Part shown: positions 11,072 to 32,967 of the stretch, piece after piece
How the letters are laid out: each line of letters begins with the position of its first letter
Numbering within the stretch: the first letter of the stretch is position 1
Virus genome (UHGV): UHGV-1507039
Reading direction: 5' to 3' (one strand)
DNA: 33,215 nt
Origin: a virus
Notes under the pieces: model-generated
Database searches by the model: none
Told to the model about the DNA's origin: nothing
The model's input: the letters and a program-made list of their open reading frames with translations, nothing else
Program-made: the position numbers and the translations under genes

Positions 11072-14752
<3,681 letters not shown>

Positions 14753-14778
<26 letters not shown>

Positions 14779-15298
14779 TCAGCAACCCCGGTATCAGTTC
14801 ATCCAGCGCGGCTGCTTTGTTCATGGCTTTGATGATATCCCGTTTCAGGAAATCAACATGTCGGTTTTCCAGTTCCGGAAAACGCCGCTGCACCGACAGG
14901 GGGATCCCGTCGAGAATACTGGCAATTTCACCTGCGATCCGCGACAACACGAAAGTACAGAATGCGGTTTCCACCACTTCAGCGGAGTCTCTGGCATTCT
15001 TCAGTTCCTGTGCGTCGGCCTGCGCACGCGTAAGTCGATGGCGTTCGTACTCAATAGTCCCTGGCTGGAGATCTGCCTCGCTGGCCTGCCGCAGTTCTTC
15101 AACCTCCCGGCGCAGCTTTTCGTTCTCAATTTCAGCATCCCTTTCGGCATACCATTTTATGACGGCGGCAGAGTCATAAAGCACCTCATTACCCTTGCCA
15201 CCGCCTCGCAGAACGGGCATTCCCTGTTCCTGCCAGTTCTGAATGGTACGGATACTCGCACCGAAAATGTCAGCCAGCTGCTTTTTGTTGACTTCCAT
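14753..15298 (-). CDS. Nu1: Terminase small subunit Nu1
   Basis: 181 aa, lambda Nu1-like (MEVNKKQLADIFGASIRTIQNWQEQGMPVLRGGGKGNEVLYD). Confidence 0.95.
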
Positions 15299-15475
15299 TG
15301 TTCATTCCACGGCCAAAAACAGAGAAAGGAAACGACAAAGGCCCAAAAGCTCGTTTTCAGCACCTGTCGTTTCCTTTCTTTTCAGGGGGTATTTTAAATA
15401 AAAACATTAAGTTACGACGAAGAAGAACGGAAACACCTTAAACCGGAAAATTTTCATAAATAGCAAAAACCCGCG

Positions 15476-15487
15476 AGGTCGCCGCCC
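15476..15487. other. cos: cosN cohesive-end site (12-nt 5' overhang GGGCGGCGACCT on the minus strand); cosB lies toward Nu1, cosQ on the other side
   Basis: Plus strand aggtcgccgccc is the reverse complement of the lambda cohesive end; about 180 bp upstream of the Nu1 start. Confidence 0.85.
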
Positions 15488-15686
15488 CGTAACCTGTCGG
15501 ATCGCCGGAAAGGACCCGCAAAATGATAATAATTATCATCTACATGTCACAACGTGCATCTACGCCATCAAACCACGTCAAATAATCAATTATGACGCAG
15601 GTATCGTATTAATTGATCTGCATCAACTTAACGTAAAAATAACTTCAGACAATACAAATCAGCGACACTGAATACGGGGCAACCTC

Positions 15687-15920
15687 ATGTCAACTAAGAA
15701 CAGAACCCGCAGAACAACAACCCGCAACATCCGCTTTCCTAACCAAATGATTGAACAAATTAACATCGCTCTTGATCAAAAAGGGTCCGGGAATTTCTCA
15801 GCCTGGGTCATTGAAGCCTGCCGCCGGAGACTGTGCTCAGAAAAAAGAGTTTCTCCTGAAGCAAACAAAGAAAAGAGTGACATTACTGAATTGCTCAGAA
15901 AACAGATCAGACCAGATTGA
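15687..15920 (+). CDS. Small ribbon-helix-helix (Arc/CopG/ParD-like) protein, function unknown
   Basis: 77 aa; N-terminal NIRFPNQMIEQINIALDQKGSGNFSAWVIEA fits a beta-strand plus two-helix RHH fold; AT-rich locus next to cos. Confidence 0.6.
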   Translation: MSTKNRTRRTTTRNIRFPNQMIEQINIALDQKGSGNFSAWVIEACRRRLCSEKRVSPEANKEKSDITELLRKQIRPD

Positions 15921-15976
15921 AGCAATTTAGATAATCGTGCAGACTACACCCCTCATATCACATGGAAGGTACTACA

Positions 15977-16387
15977 ATGGCTCAGGTTGCCATTTTTAAA
16001 CAAATATTCGATAAAGTGCGAAATAATTTAAACTATCACTGGTTTTATTCTGAACTAAAACGTCACAATGTCTCACATTACATTTACTATTTAGCCACAG
16101 AGAATATTCATCTTGTTCTTGAAAACGATAATACGGTTTTAATAAAAGGACAGGGTAAGGTTGTAAATGTAAGATTTTCAAAAAATAAATGCCTTATAGA
16201 AGCCACCTTAAAAGGATTCAAATCAGGAGAGTTATCATTTTACGAATACAGGAAAAATCTTGCTACAGCAGGGGTTTTCAGATGGATTACAAATATCCAC
16301 GAAAACAAAAGGTATTACTATACCTTTGATAATTCATTACTCTTTACTGAGAACATTCAGAACACTACACAAATATTTCCGCACTAA
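15977..16387 (+). CDS. ybcV: DUF1398 family protein, YbcV-like
   Basis: From [18 protein letters not shown]; resembles E. coli DLP12 YbcV as recalled; ORF could start 5 codons earlier at 15962. Confidence 0.7.
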
Positions 16388-16644
16388 ATCATAACGTCCG
16401 GTTTCTTCCGTGCCAGAACCGGACTCGCTGGCATGATGAAATATGTGTACCCGGTAACCCCGGTGTGCATCGTTTTTGATTATTCCCGCACACTCGCGCA
16501 GAAGGAGTTCCCCGTCGGGCTACGGTCTCTGTTAATACGGGAATACGGCGACGATACAGCGCATGATGTGTCAGGCTTGAATACCTTTATCCTTTAAAAG
16601 GGATATCAGTTAAGTTATCCCGTGTAGGGTATAAGCCATTATCA

Positions 16645-16675
16645 AAGCCACTCTGTAGGAAGTGGCTTTTGTAAT
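16645..16675 (+). terminator. Candidate intrinsic terminator downstream of the ybcV-like gene
   Basis: Hairpin AAGCCACT-ctgtagga-AGTGGCTT followed by a short T-run. Confidence 0.4.
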
Positions 16676-16878
16676 GGCAATAAAAAGCCCCGCGAATGCG
16701 AGGCTAAATCCTGGTATTTGTAATGACTGGCTCTTATCTCAACGCAGCCCCTTACCGCGCGCAAAATGCTCAATATCAAGCATCAGCAATGAGATGTTTA
16801 ATCTGGATTCACTCCAGAAGTGAGCACCACCCTGTCTACAGAGCCAGATGTGAAGGATGATGAGTAAAATTATCGCTA

Positions 16879-17346
16879 TCATCGAAGGCATTGCGTCCTG
16901 ATGTATTCCTGAAGCGTTCTCAGTGCTGTTTGGTCGCGGATAATTCCGTCCCGGATACCGAGAACGTTTCGTCCAGCAACTGGAGAGAGTTCGACGGTGG
17001 CATCATTGCCCATGCCGGAGGCGCTGGAGGTTTCGGCTGAGGATGGCACAGGGCATTTTCCTTTGACGAGCACCCGACCACCATTATCAAGCTTGCGCCG
17101 AAGAGCATCATTTTCAGCTTTCGCATCAGCTAACTCCTTCGTATATTTATCATCGAGTGCATCAGCATCACGCTGGCGCTGCTGCATGTCAGTAATGGTG
17201 GCGTTCGCCTTCTCCAGTTCACTGGCCTTGTTATCGCGCTGTTCTTTGTAGGCGATTGCATTATCACGGTAATGATTAACAGCCCATGACAGGCAGACGA
17301 TGATGCAGATAACCAGAGCGGAGATAATCGCGGTTACCCTGCTCAT
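16879..17346 (-). CDS. Rz: Spanin inner-membrane subunit Rz
   Basis: Start overlaps endolysin stop (ATGA); N-terminal TM helix then coiled-coil; Rz1 embedded in +1 frame. Confidence 0.88.
16920..17126 (-). CDS. Rz1: Spanin outer-membrane lipoprotein Rz1, embedded within Rz
   Basis: ORF nested in Rz in another frame; signal peptide with lipobox MVVGC and Pro-rich mature part. Confidence 0.8.
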
Positions 17347-17840
17347 TGTTGCCCCCACAAACAGACCTCACGCTCAATCTCACGACGAGTCATCAGGCCT
17401 TTCCATTGCTTACCGCCAGCGTATGCCCAGCGACGTAGCTGGTCACATGCGCCCTTGATATCGCCCTGGTTTATTTTGCGAAGAAGAGTAGATGTTCTGA
17501 AATTGCCTGCGCCCACGTTATAGACGAACGAGTAAAGAGCGCCGCGCGTTGTTTCCGGTATATCGACTTTGATGTACGGGTTAATTTGTCTGGCTACCGT
17601 GGCAAGGTCTTTATTCAGGAGGGCTTTGCATTCTGCTTCGGTATACGTTTTACCGGGAATGATGTCTTTTCCTGTATGCCCGTGACATACAGTCCATACG
17701 CCAACGATATCTTTGTATGGTATGTAGCTGACACCTTCCAGACCATCGTTACCACTTGGGCCAGTGATTAACACTGATGCTATAGCAATTGCTCCGCCAC
17801 CAATAGCAGCAGCAACGGCTTTTCGTAATGATGGAGGCAT
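17343..17840 (-). CDS. R: SAR (signal-anchor-release) endolysin, phage 21 R / DLP12 RrrD-like lysozyme
   Basis: 165 aa; N-terminal Gly/Ala-rich weakly hydrophobic SAR segment then a lysozyme-like domain. Confidence 0.88.
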
Positions 17841-18055
17841 TATTCACCTCTCGCAGCCTTGCGCTTATCTTCTTTAATCTTGAAATAAAGGTTTGTCAGG
17901 TACGTCAGCAGGCCAAATACCAGGCTACCCAGCACACCTATTGCTGCCCACTGTGAGGGCGTGACTTTATCGAGCAGCTGTAAAAACCAGTAACCGGCAC
18001 TACCTGCTGAGGTGCCATAGGCGACACCCGTTGTTAACTTATCCATGGATTTCAT
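17840..18055 (-). CDS. S: Class II pinholin, phage 21 S / EssD-like, with dual-start motif MKSM
   Basis: 71 aa from [26 protein letters not shown]; two TM segments; stop shares one base with the endolysin start. Confidence 0.88.
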
Positions 18056-18180
18056 AACCCCACCTCGCAGACAAAGCGGGTGTAAATTGAGGGAATACAA
18101 CGTATCGCAAAAAAGCAGAAACGTAACAGACTCGGAGTCAGTGAATAACTCAGGTATTGGGTTATCAGCTAATATCGAGA

Positions 18181-18216
18181 CTCAAAAAATGGAAAAACCC
18201 GCTCGACGGCGGGTTT
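18181..18216 (-). terminator. Intrinsic terminator on the minus strand upstream of the holin
   Basis: Minus-strand hairpin AAACCCGC-cgtcga-GCGGGTTT followed by TTCCATTTTTT. Confidence 0.65.
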
Positions 18217-18644
18217 AAGCTGTGTGACGAAGTAACCACTCTTAACAGCATAACCAATTTTTTACGTACGTAAACCACTAAATGATATTTGCGAGAATGC
18301 TACCGAGTATTGAAAACACCACTACGAATACATAAGCAAATCTCAACAAATAACCAACAAATAATTTCCAGCGTTATTTTTAGCTGGTTTAAATTGAACC
18401 TTCAAATTATAGAGCACTTATAAATAACAGCCATTAATATAAATTGACTAATAGATTTATTTTTATTCAGCCAAGAGCCATGAATAGGATTCGATAGAAA
18501 AAAGTTCAGATAAAAATAGAGATCTACTTCACAAATCAAACGAGAAACCAAAACTTACATCTTGAAATAATCACATTGATTAGATGAATATTTATCGCGC
18601 AGTGACATCATTTTTTAATAATAGTTCAAAAAAAAGGGCTCACG

Positions 18645-19727
18645 ATGAAAAAATTAACAGTGGCAATTTCTGCTGTAGCTGCATCAGTACTGATGGCGAT
18701 GTCTGCTCAGGCAGCTGAAATTTATAATAAAGACAGTAACAAGCTGGATCTGTACGGGAAAGTTAATGCTAAGCACTACTTCTCCTCTAATGATGCAGAT
18801 GATGGTGATACTACTTATGCCCGTCTTGGCTTCAAAGGTGAAACCCAAATCAACGATCAACTGACTGGTTTCGGTCAGTGGGAATATGAATTCAAAGGCA
18901 ACCGCGCTGAATCTCAAGGTTCCTCCAAAGACAAAACCCGTCTTGCATTTGCAGGCCTGAAATTCGGTGACTACGGCTCAATCGATTACGGCCGTAACTA
19001 CGGTGTAGCATACGACATCGGTGCGTGGACTGACGTTCTGCCAGAATTCGGTGGCGATACCTGGACCCAAACAGATGTGTTCATGACTGGTCGCACCACT
19101 GGTGTTGCAACCTATCGTAACAACGACTTCTTTGGTCTGGTCGATGGCCTGAACTTTGCTGCTCAGTATCAGGGTAAAAATGACCGCACTGACGTAACTG
19201 AAGCCAATGGTGATGGTTTCGGTTTCTCCACTACTTATGAGTATGAAGGATTCGGCGTGGGTGCAACCTATGCTAAATCAGATCGCACTGACGGTCAGGT
19301 CGCCTATGGTAAGAGCAAATTCAATGCCTCCGGCAAAAATGCGGAAGTATGGGCTGCAGGCCTGAAATATGATGCGAACAATATCTATCTGGCTACCACA
19401 TATTCTGAAACTCAGAATATGACCGTTTTTGGTAATAACCATATTGCAAACAAAGCACAAAACTTTGAAGCAGTAGCACAATATCAGTTTGACTTCGGTC
19501 TGCGACCATCTGTTGCTTACCTTCAGTCAAAAGGTAAAGACCTTGGTGTTCATGGTGACCGAGACTTAGTCAAGTATGTCGATGTCGGTGCTACTTACTA
19601 CTTTAATAAAAACATGTCCACTTTTGTTGATTACAAAATCAACTTAATTGACGATAGTAAGTTTACCAAAACAGCTGGTATTGATACCGACGACATCGTC
19701 GCTGTAGGTCTGGTGTATCAGTTCTAA
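18645..19727 (+). CDS. nmpC: OmpC/OmpF-family general porin, NmpC/Lc-like lysogenic-conversion moron, intact
   Basis: 360 aa; signal peptide ending AQA|AEIYNK; porin hallmarks including C-terminal VYQF; AT-rich; opposite strand to flanking Q and lysis genes as in DLP12. Confidence 0.9.
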
Positions 19728-27681: not shown

Positions 27682-27753
27682 GCGCGGCGTTACCGCATAC
27701 CAATAACGCTTCACTCGAGGCGTTTTTCGTTATGTATAAATAAGGAGCACACC

Positions 27754-27918
27754 ATGCAATATGCCATTGCAGGGTGGCCTGTTGCTGGCTGCCCTTCCGA
27801 ATCTTTACTTGAACGAATCACCCGTAAATTACGTGACGGATGGAAACGCCTTATCGACATACTTAATCAGCCAGGAGTCCCAAAAAATGGATCAAACACT
27901 TATGGCTATCCAGACTAA
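27754..27918 (+). CDS. cIII: CIII (FtsH inhibitor, 54 aa)
   Basis: [54 protein letters not shown], lambda CIII-like; below the 60-aa ORF-track cutoff. Confidence 0.85.
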   Translation: MQYAIAGWPVAGCPSESLLERITRKLRDGWKRLIDILNQPGVPKNGSNTYGYPD

Positions 27919-32890: not shown

Positions 32891-32967
32891 TGGCGCGCCC
32901 TGCAGGATTCGAACCTGCGGCCCACGACTTAGAAGGTCGTTGCTCTATCCAACTGAGCTAAGGGCGC
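32891..32967 (-). tRNA. argU: tRNA-Arg (anticodon UCU), argU-type; likely carries the prophage att core at its 3' end
   Basis: 77-nt minus-strand sequence GCGCCCTTAGCTCAGTTGGATAGAGCAACGACCTTCTAAGTCGTGGGCCGCAGGTTCGAATCCTGCAGGGCGCGCCA with cloverleaf features, anticodon loop CTTCTAA and encoded CCA. Confidence 0.9.

What the first reader, a model, noticed from the sequence alone, without database searches (positions are those of the whole stretch)
15687..16387. RHH protein plus DUF1398 (YbcV-like) pair in an AT-rich island beside cos
A 77-aa ribbon-helix-helix-like protein is followed 41 bp later by a DUF1398/YbcV-like protein, both on the strand opposite to the flanking late genes and in a region of clearly lower GC. 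This site, between cos and the lysis cassette, is a classic moron position, and lambda bor is absent here. A small RHH DNA binder followed by a protein of unknown function resembles toxin-antitoxin or abortive-infection modules, but there is no direct evidence for that.
Basis: inference. Interest (0 to 1): 0.5.

Follow-up and report, generated by a model that had tools for sequence, protein, structure and literature searches.

The report
Known lambdoid ynfO–ydfO gene pair
The two genes are real, but they are the long-annotated and still uncharacterised ynfO–ydfO pair found in phage lambda and most E. coli prophages, and they behave as two independent accessory genes rather than a toxin–antitoxin module.

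Summary
Both ORFs exist as described. They lie on the strand opposite the late genes, 200 bp from cos, in a 32–44% GC patch.

- **Identity.** ORF1 (15687-15920) is a YlcI/YnfO-family protein (DUF3950). ORF2 is a DUF1398 protein, 79% identical to E. coli YdfO (PDB 2HH8). Its likely true start is 15977. The arrangement equals ynfO–ydfO of the K-12 Qin prophage.
- **Origin of the adjacency.** Lambda and DLP12 carry the same two genes, separated by about 600 bp holding an opposite-strand gene (ybcW). The adjacency here is a deletion form.
- **Ribbon-helix-helix (RHH) call.** It is plausible but not proven.
- **Toxin–antitoxin reading.** It is not supported:
  - YnfO mostly occurs without DUF1398, always as a lone gene between the lysis cassette and the first packaging gene.
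  - DUF1398 occurs alone on chromosomes.
  - The YnfO tail is hypervariable.
  - The two genes reassort.
  - Published overexpression and knockout strains of DUF1398 genes exist.
  - There are no defence-family hits.
- **YnfO core.** The 50-residue core is under very strong purifying selection. Its function remains unknown.
- **Side observation.** A conserved, apparently structured RNA element lies at 16397-16583 on the late-transcript strand.

The parts
15476..15487 (.). cosN cohesive-end sequence (AGGTCGCCGCCC, the reverse complement of the lambda 5'-GGGCGGCGACCT). The right end of the linear phage genome corresponds to 15488.
   Evidence: Sequence read. blastn homology to the right end of linear lambda-type genome O276 starts at window 15488. 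The identity of the cohesive end rests on established knowledge of lambda.
15687..15920 (+). ynfO/ylcI-family gene (77 aa): a small basic protein and probable ribbon-helix-helix DNA binder
   Evidence: Pfam DUF3950 4.9e-21; NCBIfam YlcI_YnfO_N 35.7 bits against a cutoff of 30; PHROG 949 7.9e-34; annotated as ynfO in a 99.9%-identical RefSeq prophage; 98% nucleotide identity to K-12 Qin ynfO.
15687..15836 (+). Conserved core of YnfO (codons 1-50): basic N-terminal arm (MSTKNRTRRTTTRN), predicted beta-strand NIRFP, helix A, GSGN turn and helix B
   Evidence: Residues 1-50 are nearly invariant across 32 homologues, while residues 51 onward are hypervariable. dN/dS is 0.04-0.05 against HK97-type copies. 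DNA homology to HK97-type loci spans exactly 15687-15833. AF2 predicts helices 19-32 and 34-52.
15850..15903 (.). Mosaic junction: 54 bp here replace a 613-bp segment of lambda/DLP12 that carries ybcW/lambdap79 on the opposite strand. This segment encodes most of the non-conserved YnfO tail.
   Evidence: blastn of window against O276: 15488-15849 matches 1-362 (95%) and 15904-16563 matches 976-1635 (82.5%). O276, DLP12 and O157 annotations show the order ylcI, ybcW(-), ybcV.
15977..16387 (+). DUF1398 (YdfO/YbcV-like) gene, 136 aa. An upstream in-frame ATG at 15962 gives the 141-aa ORF of the finding.
   Evidence: PF07166 3.3e-43. PDB 2HH8 (E. coli YdfO, NMR) 1.4e-69 with 79% identity. The RefSeq start corresponds to 15977. 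GC is 0.32, no hydrophobic segment is present (maximum KD19 0.39) and dN/dS is 0.2-0.37.
16397..16583 (-). Conserved non-coding block bordering the cargo slot: a candidate structured RNA in the sense of the late transcript. It is not part of the gene pair but forms the other constant border of the slot.
   Evidence: Present in lambda, DLP12 and HK97-type loci with or without DUF1398. At least 120 IMG/VR contigs carry it. 97.6% of cells are paired over 77 distinct sequences, 10 pairs show double-sided changes, 0 of 500 shuffles reach the observed values, and slid controls give 38-61% paired. No Rfam match.
14753..15298 (-). Nu1 (small terminase subunit), the first packaging gene, divergent from ynfO across cos
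   Evidence: Pfam Phage_Nu1 9.2e-101.
16879..17358 (-). Rz spanin, the last gene of the lysis cassette
   Evidence: Pfam Phage_lysis 4.1e-29.

Best explanation
These are two independent accessory genes sitting in the variable slot that lambdoid phages keep between the lysis cassette and the packaging genes, read antisense to the late transcript.

**YnfO-family gene.** This is the near-constant occupant of the packaging-proximal edge of the slot. It most likely encodes a dimeric ribbon-helix-helix DNA-binding protein with a basic N-terminal arm. That protein would act as a small transcriptional repressor or autoregulator expressed from the prophage.

**DUF1398 gene.** This is optional AT-rich cargo of the moron type. 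It encodes a soluble cytoplasmic protein with the YdfO fold. Published work reports that its K-12 copies are stress- and regulator-responsive and tolerated when overexpressed. It most likely benefits the lysogen rather than killing it.

**Why they are adjacent here.** The tight spacing is the Qin-type deletion form of the lambda/DLP12 arrangement ylcI-ybcW-ybcV. Because of that deletion, the DUF1398 gene here is probably co-transcribed with ynfO.

**Shown:** family identities, positions, selection, mosaic structure and lack of obligate pairing.

**Inferred:** RHH dimer and DNA binding, repressor role, expression in the lysogen, co-transcription and benefit to the host.
For: **Identity**
- establish the families and the Qin and DLP12 equivalents.
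- Lambda has both genes.

**Deletion form**
- One search shows that 54 bp here replace 613 bp carrying ybcW.

**YnfO without DUF1398**
- Loci L187, L189-192 and L194-L197 show one lone + strand gene between Rz-side genes and Nu1, TerS or HNH.
- In 56 loci sampled independently of either gene, YnfO is present in 25 and DUF1398 in 8. Seven of those 8 also have YnfO.
- In E. coli genomes the ynfO core matches 9861 places, up to 12 per genome.
- Full-length DUF1398 is found in 3011 genomes, with at most 6 places per genome. Listed O157 records show 7-10 ynfO places, against 1 DUF1398 place in other O157 records.

**DUF1398 without YnfO**
- Twenty chromosomal loci in Kluyvera, Klebsiella, Salmonella, Raoultella and Pseudocitrobacter have no DUF3950 ORF within 4 kb.
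- ycgX of E. coli is another lone copy.

**Selection and reassortment**
- Core dN/dS is 0.04-0.05 and the tail is hypervariable.
- ynfO is 98% identical to Qin ynfO, while the adjacent DUF1398 is only about 81% identical (dS 0.67). The two genes therefore reassort.

**RHH-compatible model and hits**
-.

**Not toxic, and regulated**
- An ASKA ybcV overexpression clone gave a glycogen phenotype (PMC2853380).
- A Keio ybcV::kan strain exists (PMC3945230).
- ydfO is induced 12- to 116-fold by ionic-liquid shock.
- YdfO overexpression is reported to raise oxidative-stress resistance (both PMC4077768).
- ybcV mRNA falls 10-fold in a pdhR mutant (PMC7660256).

**No defence or toxin signal**
- PADLOC gave no credible hit.
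Against: - No direct evidence exists for DNA binding, a target operator, a promoter or expression of YnfO. The promoter scan found no convincing + strand promoter upstream of ynfO, and no operator motif is shared between lambda-type and HK97-type upstream regions.
- The RHH assignment is not statistically established.
- Phage-borne DUF1398 was accompanied by YnfO in 7 of 8 sampled loci. A one-sided dependence of DUF1398 on YnfO is therefore not excluded.
- The DUF1398 structure prediction failed (pLDDT 46.5), so its fold gave no functional clue.
- The extreme conservation of the YnfO core and its fixed position next to the packaging genes hint at a more specific role than generic autoregulation.
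Confidence: 0.7

Rival explanations
1. Toxin-antitoxin or abortive-infection module. YnfO would be an RHH antitoxin and autorepressor, and DUF1398 the toxin or effector released on phage attack.
For: - In this window the order is small RHH-like gene first, then a co-oriented second gene 56 bp downstream with no terminator found between them.
- PHROG HicB-like scores E=0.007.
- 7 of 8 phage-borne DUF1398 genes had YnfO nearby.
Against: - Most YnfO copies have no DUF1398 partner.
- DUF1398 stands alone in 20 chromosomal loci and as ycgX.
- In lambda and DLP12 a convergent gene and about 600 bp separate the two.
- The YnfO C-terminal tail, the part that neutralises toxins in RHH antitoxins, is the non-conserved part and is created by the mosaic junction.
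- The same ynfO allele is paired with DUF1398 alleles about 20% apart.
- ybcV and ydfO overexpression strains and a ybcV knockout are used in published work without reported lethality.
- PADLOC and Pfam give no toxin or defence hit. HEPN_AbiA_CTD scores 15.8 bits against a cutoff of 27.
Confidence: 0.07
2. YnfO is functionally tied to the packaging module rather than to DUF1398. It is always divergent from the first packaging gene (Nu1, TerS or HNH). It could silence terminase expression or cos cleavage in the lysogen, or act on incoming related phages. DUF1398 would be an unrelated passenger.
For: - YnfO holds a constant position directly upstream of and divergent from Nu1, TerS or HNH in every context examined, across two different packaging systems.
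- YlcI/YnfO genes are also listed among accessory genes of capsid-forming PICI satellites that carry their own TerS and TerL (PMC13612085).
- The DNA-binding core is under extreme purifying selection.
- A near-consensus promoter-like site points toward cos and Nu1 and overlaps a perfect 8-1-8 palindrome at 15524-15540.
Against: - No shared operator was found between lambda-type and HK97-type contexts.
- The palindrome is retained in a phage that lacks ynfO (L222), so it is more likely a cos-associated feature.
- 11 of 56 sampled loci have Nu1 but no YnfO, so it is dispensable.
- Position alone may simply reflect a recombination hotspot.
Confidence: 0.15
3. The ORFs are decaying remnants or conserved only as DNA (cos-flanking or recombination boundary sequence), not as functional proteins.
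For: The cos-to-ynfO spacer is almost invariant among lambda-type phages, and the region is a mosaic junction hotspot.
Against: - Synonymous sites of the YnfO core are saturated (dS 1.4-1.6) while the protein is kept (dN/dS 0.04).
- In HK97-type contexts, homology covers exactly the coding core and not the upstream DNA.
- DUF1398 has dN/dS of 0.2-0.37, and a homologue was stable enough for an NMR structure.
Confidence: 0.03

Closest known systems
E. coli K-12 Qin prophage ynfO-ydfO
   Same: The gene order is identical: nohA(-), ynfO(+, 77 aa), a 57-bp gap, then ydfO(+, 136 aa). ynfO is 98% identical at the nucleotide level, including the tail. Homology runs 15300-16425 at 90% overall.
   Different: The DUF1398 allele is divergent (79% aa, dS 0.67). 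Downstream, Qin has gnsB and the cold-shock genes, and lacks the conserved RNA block. This window goes from that block to Rz.
Phage lambda right end and K-12 DLP12: ylcI - ybcW(-) - ybcV - bor (lambdap78, lambdap79 and an ynfO-like ORF unannotated in NC_001416)
   Same: The same two families sit in the same order and orientation between cos and Rz. The cos-proximal 362 bp are 95% identical and the DUF1398 block is 82.5% identical. The conserved block follows DUF1398 in both.
   Different: Lambda and DLP12 have an extra 613 bp with ybcW on the opposite strand between the genes, a different 64-aa YnfO tail, and bor downstream. All of these are absent here.
P22 Arc and Mnt (ribbon-helix-helix repressors in a phage late region)
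   Same: Both are small, have a basic N-terminal arm, and share the motif hydrophobic-R-aromatic-P, then helix, G-x-S/N turn and helix. hhalign places NIRFP on Arc NLRWP. Both genes are embedded in a late operon region.
   Different: There is no significant sequence or structure score. No antirepressor target lies next to it here. DNA binding is untested.
Type II toxin-antitoxin modules with RHH antitoxins (ParD/ParE, RHH-type MazE, HicB)
   Same: In this window the layout is a small RHH-like gene followed by a second small gene. There is low-Z structural resemblance to the RHH domains of MazE and ParD.
   Different: The pairing is not obligate, the tail is not conserved, the second gene has no toxin family hit, and the literature uses overexpression clones without reported toxicity.
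lambda bor and other 'morons' of the late region
   Same: DUF1398 lies in the same slot and on the same strand as bor. It has low GC and is present in only some related phages (8 of 56, against Bor in 15 of 56).
   Different: It has no signal peptide or lipobox and is predicted to be cytoplasmic. No phenotype is known.

Membership tests
YlcI/YnfO family (Pfam DUF3950, NCBIfam NF041551) | Profile match above the curated cutoffs | tested here: met
   PF13132 scores 74.8 bits against a cutoff of 25. NF041551 scores 35.7 bits against a cutoff of 30. All 24 aligned homologues hit PF13132.
YlcI/YnfO family (Pfam DUF3950, NCBIfam NF041551) | Position in lambdoid prophages next to the first packaging gene, on the opposite strand | tested here: met
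   The gene is divergent from Nu1 across cos here. The same holds in Qin, DLP12, O157 and HK97-type loci.
DUF1398 / YdfO-like (Pfam PF07166) | Profile match above the cutoff, and similarity to the solved member YdfO (2HH8) | tested here: met
   147 bits against a cutoff of 22. phmmer against 2HH8 gives 1.4e-69 over residues 1-140.
DUF1398 / YdfO-like (Pfam PF07166) | YdfO-like fold | tested here: inconclusive
   The AF2 model has mean pLDDT 46.5 and was not used for fold search. The fold is inferred only from 79% identity to 2HH8.
Ribbon-helix-helix (Arc/MetJ/CopG) superfamily | Beta-strand, helix A, G-x-S/T/N turn and helix B within about 45 residues | tested here: met
   Predicted extended segment 1-18, helix 19-32 and helix 34-52, with pLDDT 72-86 over 11-50. 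The sequence is R13-N-I-R-F-P18 ... K32-G-S-G-N-F-S38.
Ribbon-helix-helix (Arc/MetJ/CopG) superfamily | Significant sequence-profile or structural similarity to a solved RHH protein | tested here: inconclusive
   - hmmsearch against PDB: no hit.
- hhalign against Arc and Mnt: correct register, but probability 2.8% and 0.3%.
- Foldseek: nothing below E=4.7.
- PHROG HicB-like: E=0.007.
Ribbon-helix-helix (Arc/MetJ/CopG) superfamily | Dimerisation through an intermolecular beta-ribbon, and operator DNA binding | not testable with these tools
   Only monomer prediction was available. No operator motif was found.
Type II toxin-antitoxin module | The two genes co-occur as an obligate, adjacent, co-oriented pair | tested here: not met
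   They are adjacent only in the Qin-type deletion form. In lambda and DLP12 an opposite-strand gene separates them. 17 of 25 sampled YnfO loci lack DUF1398. 20 chromosomal DUF1398 loci lack YnfO.
Type II toxin-antitoxin module | Antitoxin C-terminal region conserved and co-evolving with the toxin | tested here: not met
   The tail from residue 51 is hypervariable and is generated by the mosaic junction. ynfO is 98% identical to Qin while the neighbouring DUF1398 is about 81% identical.
Type II toxin-antitoxin module | The second protein is growth-inhibitory when expressed alone | not tested
   Only indirect literature exists. An ASKA ybcV clone was scored for a glycogen phenotype. YdfO overexpression is reported to raise oxidative-stress resistance. 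A Keio ybcV::kan strain is viable. The allele in this window was not tested.
Known anti-phage defence systems (PADLOC-DB v2) | Match of either protein to a defence-system model | tested here: not met
   YnfO has no hit. DUF1398 has only Csx23 at E=0.025 and 12.6 bits.
Moron / lysogenic-conversion cargo of the lambdoid late region | Located between late-operon modules, with deviant base composition and patchy presence among close relatives | tested here: met
   DUF1398 has GC 0.32 against 0.51 for the window. It is present in 8 of 56 sampled slots. It lies between Rz and cos on the antisense strand.
Moron / lysogenic-conversion cargo of the lambdoid late region | Own promoter and terminator, and expression from the repressed prophage | tested here: inconclusive
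   No convincing + strand promoter or terminator turned up in the consensus scan. The literature shows that the K-12 copies are transcribed and regulated.

The most novel reading that the evidence does not exclude
The YnfO family would be a dedicated, so far unrecognised regulator of the boundary between the lysis and packaging modules of lambdoid phages and their satellites.

- It lies about 200 bp from the right-hand genome end in lambda-type phages. From textbook knowledge, not tested here, that end is held to enter the cell first.
- It is always divergent from the first packaging gene.
- It may keep terminase and cos cleavage silent in lysogens, or interfere with related incoming phages.
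- It may work together with the neighbouring conserved late-strand structured RNA (16397-16583).
- DUF1398 would be a stress-responsive effector placed under its control in the Qin-type arrangement.
Probability: 0.12. Interest if true: 0.6.

Novelty: already known. Interest (0 to 1): 0.25.

Why it matters
As a discovery it matters little. The pair is the annotated ynfO–ydfO (ylcI/ybcV) gene set, present in phage lambda, in two K-12 prophages and in most E. coli genomes.

What remains of interest is that both genes are still listed as uncharacterised in the E. coli 'y-ome' (PMC11551758). They sit in the best-studied phage of all.

The YnfO core is one of the most strongly conserved small ORFs of lambdoid phages. 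Its dN/dS is about 0.04, and some genomes carry up to 12 copies. It also keeps a fixed position beside the packaging genes.

This analysis removes the toxin–antitoxin idea. It separates the constant element (YnfO) from the optional cargo (DUF1398). It points experiments toward YnfO DNA binding and toward an adjacent conserved RNA structure.

Tried and rejected
- **DUF1398 structure prediction.** The AF2 run from a 21-sequence alignment gave pLDDT 46.5.
- **Structure and profile searches for YnfO.**
  - Foldseek against PDB found nothing significant.
  - hmmsearch of the YnfO profile against PDB sequences gave 0 hits.
- **Related-locus scan, diverse alignment.** The search for related loci with the diverse DUF1398 alignment failed because it had no conserved stretch. 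A subset worked.
- **Related-locus scan, viral contigs.** Scans seeded with the two proteins returned only near-identical loci. They were useless for co-occurrence. A scan seeded with the neutral non-coding block replaced them.
- **Operator motif.** The only shared word between lambda-type and HK97-type ynfO upstream regions was one 11-mer, absent from a third locus. It was judged to be chance.
- **HEPN_AbiA_CTD (Pfam) and Csx23 (PADLOC).** Both weak hits on DUF1398 were rejected as sub-threshold noise.
- **Product labels.** PHROG 413 'head protein' and the old 'putative envelope protein' label were rejected. There is no hydrophobic segment, the gene is not in a head module and it lies antisense to the late operon.
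- **Known prophage small RNAs.** AgvB and AsxR were checked as candidates for the conserved block. They lie 3' of PR', not at this site.
- **Small ORF 16433-16597.** It was rejected as coding because an indel shifts the frame between this window and lambda.
Full report
**1. Observation**

The window is a lambda-like prophage with its late genes on the - strand.
- TerL is at 12853-14778.
- Nu1 is at 14753-15298 (Pfam Phage_Nu1, 9e-101).
- Rz is at 16879-17358 (Phage_lysis, 4e-29).
- The endolysin is at 17343-17840 and the holin at 17840-18100.

The reverse complement of the lambda cohesive end lies at 15476-15487. Homology to the right end of a linear lambda-type genome begins at 15488.

Both ORFs of the finding are present on the + strand: 15687-15920 (77 aa) and 15962-16387 (141 aa). 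GC falls to 0.32-0.43 across 15300-16350, against 0.52-0.58 on either side. By gene, GC is 0.44 and 0.32, against 0.51 for the window. No Bor-sized ORF is present.

One correction applies. The second gene most likely starts at the ATG at 15977 (136 aa). A GGAAGG lies 6 nt upstream of it, and RefSeq uses that start. The gap between the genes is then 56 bp, not 41.

**2. Identity**

- **ORF1.** It matches Pfam DUF3950 (4.9e-21), NCBIfam YlcI/YnfO (35.7 bits, cutoff 30) and PHROG 949 (7.9e-34).
- **ORF2.** It matches Pfam DUF1398 (3.3e-43). It is 79% identical to E. coli YdfO, whose NMR structure is PDB 2HH8 (1.4e-69).
- **Spread in E. coli.**
  - A 1.6-kb query around the pair matches 4898 of 5426 complete E. 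coli genomes.
  - 1013 of those genomes hold at least 80% of the query.
  - The RefSeq annotation there reads 'YlcI/YnfO family protein' followed by 'DUF1398 domain-containing protein'.
- **Qin.** The K-12 Qin prophage has the same layout: nohA(-), ynfO (77 aa), a 57-bp gap, then ydfO (136 aa).
- **DLP12, an O157 prophage and lambda.** They have the order ylcI, ybcW (opposite strand), ybcV, bor, Rz.
- **Lambda annotation.** In NC_001416 the DUF1398 gene is lambdap78 and the ybcW homologue is lambdap79. The ynfO-like ORF is not annotated there, but it is gp68 in phage O276.

The pair is therefore not a peculiarity of this phage. It is part of the classical lambda right end.

**3. How the adjacency arose**

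blastn against O276 gives two matching blocks.
- Window 15488-15849 matches 1-362 at 95%.
- Window 15904-16563 matches 976-1635 at 82.5%.

Between these blocks the window has 54 bp where lambda has 613 bp, including ybcW. The YnfO tail beyond about residue 54 is read from this junction.

Across 32 homologues, residues 1-50 of YnfO are nearly invariant. Everything after residue 50 differs from one mosaic type to the next.

Compared with K-12 Qin, ynfO differs at 4 of 231 nucleotides. The neighbouring DUF1398 gene differs at about 19% of nucleotides (dS 0.67). The two genes therefore have separate histories even within the same layout.

**4. Co-occurrence**

*YnfO without DUF1398.*
- L187: YnfO, a 46-aa ORF, then lysozyme and holin.
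- L189-192, L194 and L197: HNH endonuclease(-), YnfO(+), then Rz-side genes(-) in HK97-type packaging contexts.
- L195: TerS(-), YnfO(+), PerC-family(-), Rz(-).
- L196 has the same kind of layout.
- In every case YnfO is a lone + strand gene between the lysis cassette and the first packaging gene.

*An unbiased sample.* I scanned IMG/VR with a 17-nt pattern from a neighbouring non-coding block and typed the 56 loci that had long flanks.
- YnfO is present in 25 loci.
- DUF1398 is present in 8, of which 7 also have YnfO.
- Bor is present in 15.
- 11 loci have Nu1 without YnfO.

*E. coli genomes.*
- The 147-bp ynfO core has 9861 places in 4184 genomes, up to 12 per genome.
- Full-length DUF1398 occurs in 3011 genomes, with at most 6 places per genome.
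- O157:H7 records listed for the ynfO search show 7-10 places. Other O157:H7 records listed for the DUF1398 search show 1 place.

*DUF1398 without YnfO.*
- Twenty chromosomal loci in Kluyvera, Klebsiella, Salmonella diarizonae, Raoultella and Pseudocitrobacter encode a DUF1398 protein.
- These proteins score about 1e-30 against a profile of the phage-borne group.
- None has a DUF3950 ORF within 4 kb.
- E. coli ycgX is another lone copy.

**5. Are they real genes?**

Between lambda-type and HK97-type copies, the YnfO core has saturated synonymous sites (dS 1.4-1.6) but dN of only 0.06-0.08. That gives dN/dS of 0.04-0.05.

In HK97-type contexts, DNA homology begins exactly at the ATG and ends at codon 49. 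The protein is what is conserved, not the flanking DNA.

DUF1398 has dN/dS of 0.2-0.37.

**6. Is YnfO a ribbon-helix-helix protein?**

For:
- The AF2 model (mean pLDDT 69, with 72-86 over residues 11-50) shows an extended N-terminus followed by helices 19-32 and 34-52.
- The sequence NIRFP-helix-KGSGNFS-helix aligns in register with Arc (NLRWP...NGRSVNS) and Mnt.
- PHROG HicB-like scores E=0.007.

Against:
- Foldseek, the PDB profile search and Pfam give nothing.

I rate the RHH assignment as likely (about 0.75) but unproven.

**7. The DUF1398 protein**

It has no hydrophobic segment, so the old 'envelope protein' and PHROG 'head protein' labels have no support. Structure prediction failed (pLDDT 46.5).

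An exhaustive phmmer search of 1.84 billion cluster representatives found only 196 hits. Most are fragments, and the few full-length relatives are at 26-57% identity.

Literature:
- Both genes are still listed as uncharacterised (PMC11551758).
- ybcV and ybcW mRNAs fall about 10-fold in a pdhR mutant (PMC7660256).
- ydfO is induced 12- to 116-fold by ionic-liquid shock.
- YdfO overexpression was reported to raise oxidative-stress resistance (both PMC4077768).
- An ASKA ybcV clone changes glycogen content (PMC2853380).
- A Keio ybcV knockout is in use (PMC3945230).
- ybcW and ylcI form a convergent overlapping transcript pair (PMC12288877).

None of this suggests a toxin. PADLOC gives no credible hit.

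**8. Interpretation**

The best reading is two independent accessory genes in the variable slot between the lysis and packaging modules.
- YnfO is the near-constant, strongly constrained, probably DNA-binding element.
- DUF1398 is optional low-GC cargo.
- In the Qin-type deletion form it has come to lie directly behind ynfO and is probably co-transcribed with it.

The toxin-antitoxin or abortive-infection idea fails on five counts:
- co-occurrence;
- the non-conserved antitoxin tail;
- reassortment of the alleles;
- the absence of any toxin or defence family signal;
- indirectly, the published overexpression strains.

It is not strictly excluded. Phage-borne DUF1398 almost always has YnfO nearby, and this allele was never tested.

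A more interesting rival is that YnfO is tied to the packaging module. It is always divergent from Nu1, TerS or HNH. It is also listed in capsid-forming PICI satellites (PMC13612085). I found no operator, so this stays speculative.

**9. Side observation**

Directly downstream of DUF1398 lies a conserved non-coding block at 16397-16583.
- **Distribution.**
  - It is present in lambda (between lambdap78 and bor) and in DLP12.
  - It is present in HK97-type loci that lack DUF1398.
  - It is absent from K-12 Qin.
- **Coding.** It is not coding: an indel shifts the frame between this window and lambda.
- **Structure.**
  - On the - strand, the sense of the late transcript, 77 distinct sequences keep a multi-hairpin structure.
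  - 97.6% of cells are paired and 10 pairs have changes on both sides.
  - 0 of 500 shuffles reach the observed values, and slid controls give 38-61% paired.
- **Strand.**
  - About a tenth of the cells are U-G wobbles on this strand. They would be C-A mismatches on the other strand.
  - RNAalifold also favours the - strand (-27 against -7 kcal/mol).
- **Known families.** Rfam has no match. The prophage small RNAs AgvB and AsxR lie elsewhere.
- **Caveat.** The sequences are closely related, and I derived the structure from them.

**10. Verdict**

The family calls are right, RHH is plausible and the toxin-antitoxin reading is not supported. The feature is already known as a pair of annotated but uncharacterised gene families.

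Noticed in passing
window 16397-16583 (- strand): A conserved non-coding block of about 190 nt borders the cargo slot. It is present in lambda, DLP12 and HK97-type prophages whether or not DUF1398 or YnfO is there. On the late-transcript strand it keeps a multi-hairpin structure: 97.6% paired over 77 distinct sequences, 10 pairs with double-sided changes and many U-G wobbles specific to that strand. It has no Rfam family. It may be an undescribed RNA element of lambdoid late transcripts.
   Followed up: partly
window 15524-15540: A perfect 8-1-8 palindrome, ATGATAAT-A-ATTATCAT, lies 37 bp beyond cosN. It is overlapped by the best sigma-70-like site of the region (GTGACA-16-TATCAT, 10/12), which points toward cos and Nu1 on the - strand. 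The palindrome is retained in an IMG/VR phage (L222) in which the conserved block abuts cos with no room for ynfO. It therefore looks cos-associated rather than a YnfO operator.
   Followed up: partly
window 15903-15920: The 3' end of ynfO carries CAGATCAGACCAGAT. In K-12 Qin the same spot reads CAGGTCAGACCAGAT and was reported as a PdhR box bound in genomic SELEX. Here one half-site has a G-to-A change (PMC7660256).
   Followed up: no
window 18645-19727 (+), AT-rich patch 18150-18750: A 360-aa ORF on the opposite strand lies between the Q antiterminator region and the holin. It corresponds to the gene annotated 'porin OmpC' in the 99.9%-identical RefSeq prophage. It looks like an nmpC-like moron in the PR' slot, preceded by a 29-35% GC patch.
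   Followed up: no
window 16739-16891 (-): A 50-aa hydrophobic ORF overlaps the 3' end of Rz on the late strand. RefSeq annotates it as a hypothetical protein (WP_001139678.1) in the near-identical prophage.
   Followed up: no
window 16646-16705: Two convergent terminator-like hairpins sit between the conserved block and Rz. One is AAAGCCACT...AGTGGCTTTTGT on the + strand (read by eye). The other is AGCCTCGCATTCGCGGGGCT followed by TTTTTATT on the - strand.
   Followed up: no
window 15962-16387 (product labels in public records): The DUF1398 protein is labelled 'head protein' (PHROG 413 and RefSeq phage records) and 'putative envelope protein' (older lambda records). Neither label fits a soluble protein encoded antisense to the late operon outside the head module. 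They look like propagated annotation errors.
   Followed up: partly
window 27741-27799 (+) and 32894-32967 (-): Rfam finds the lambda cIII thermoregulator element (88.5 bits) and a tRNA gene near the end of the window. The tRNA gene is possibly the integration site of the prophage.
   Followed up: no
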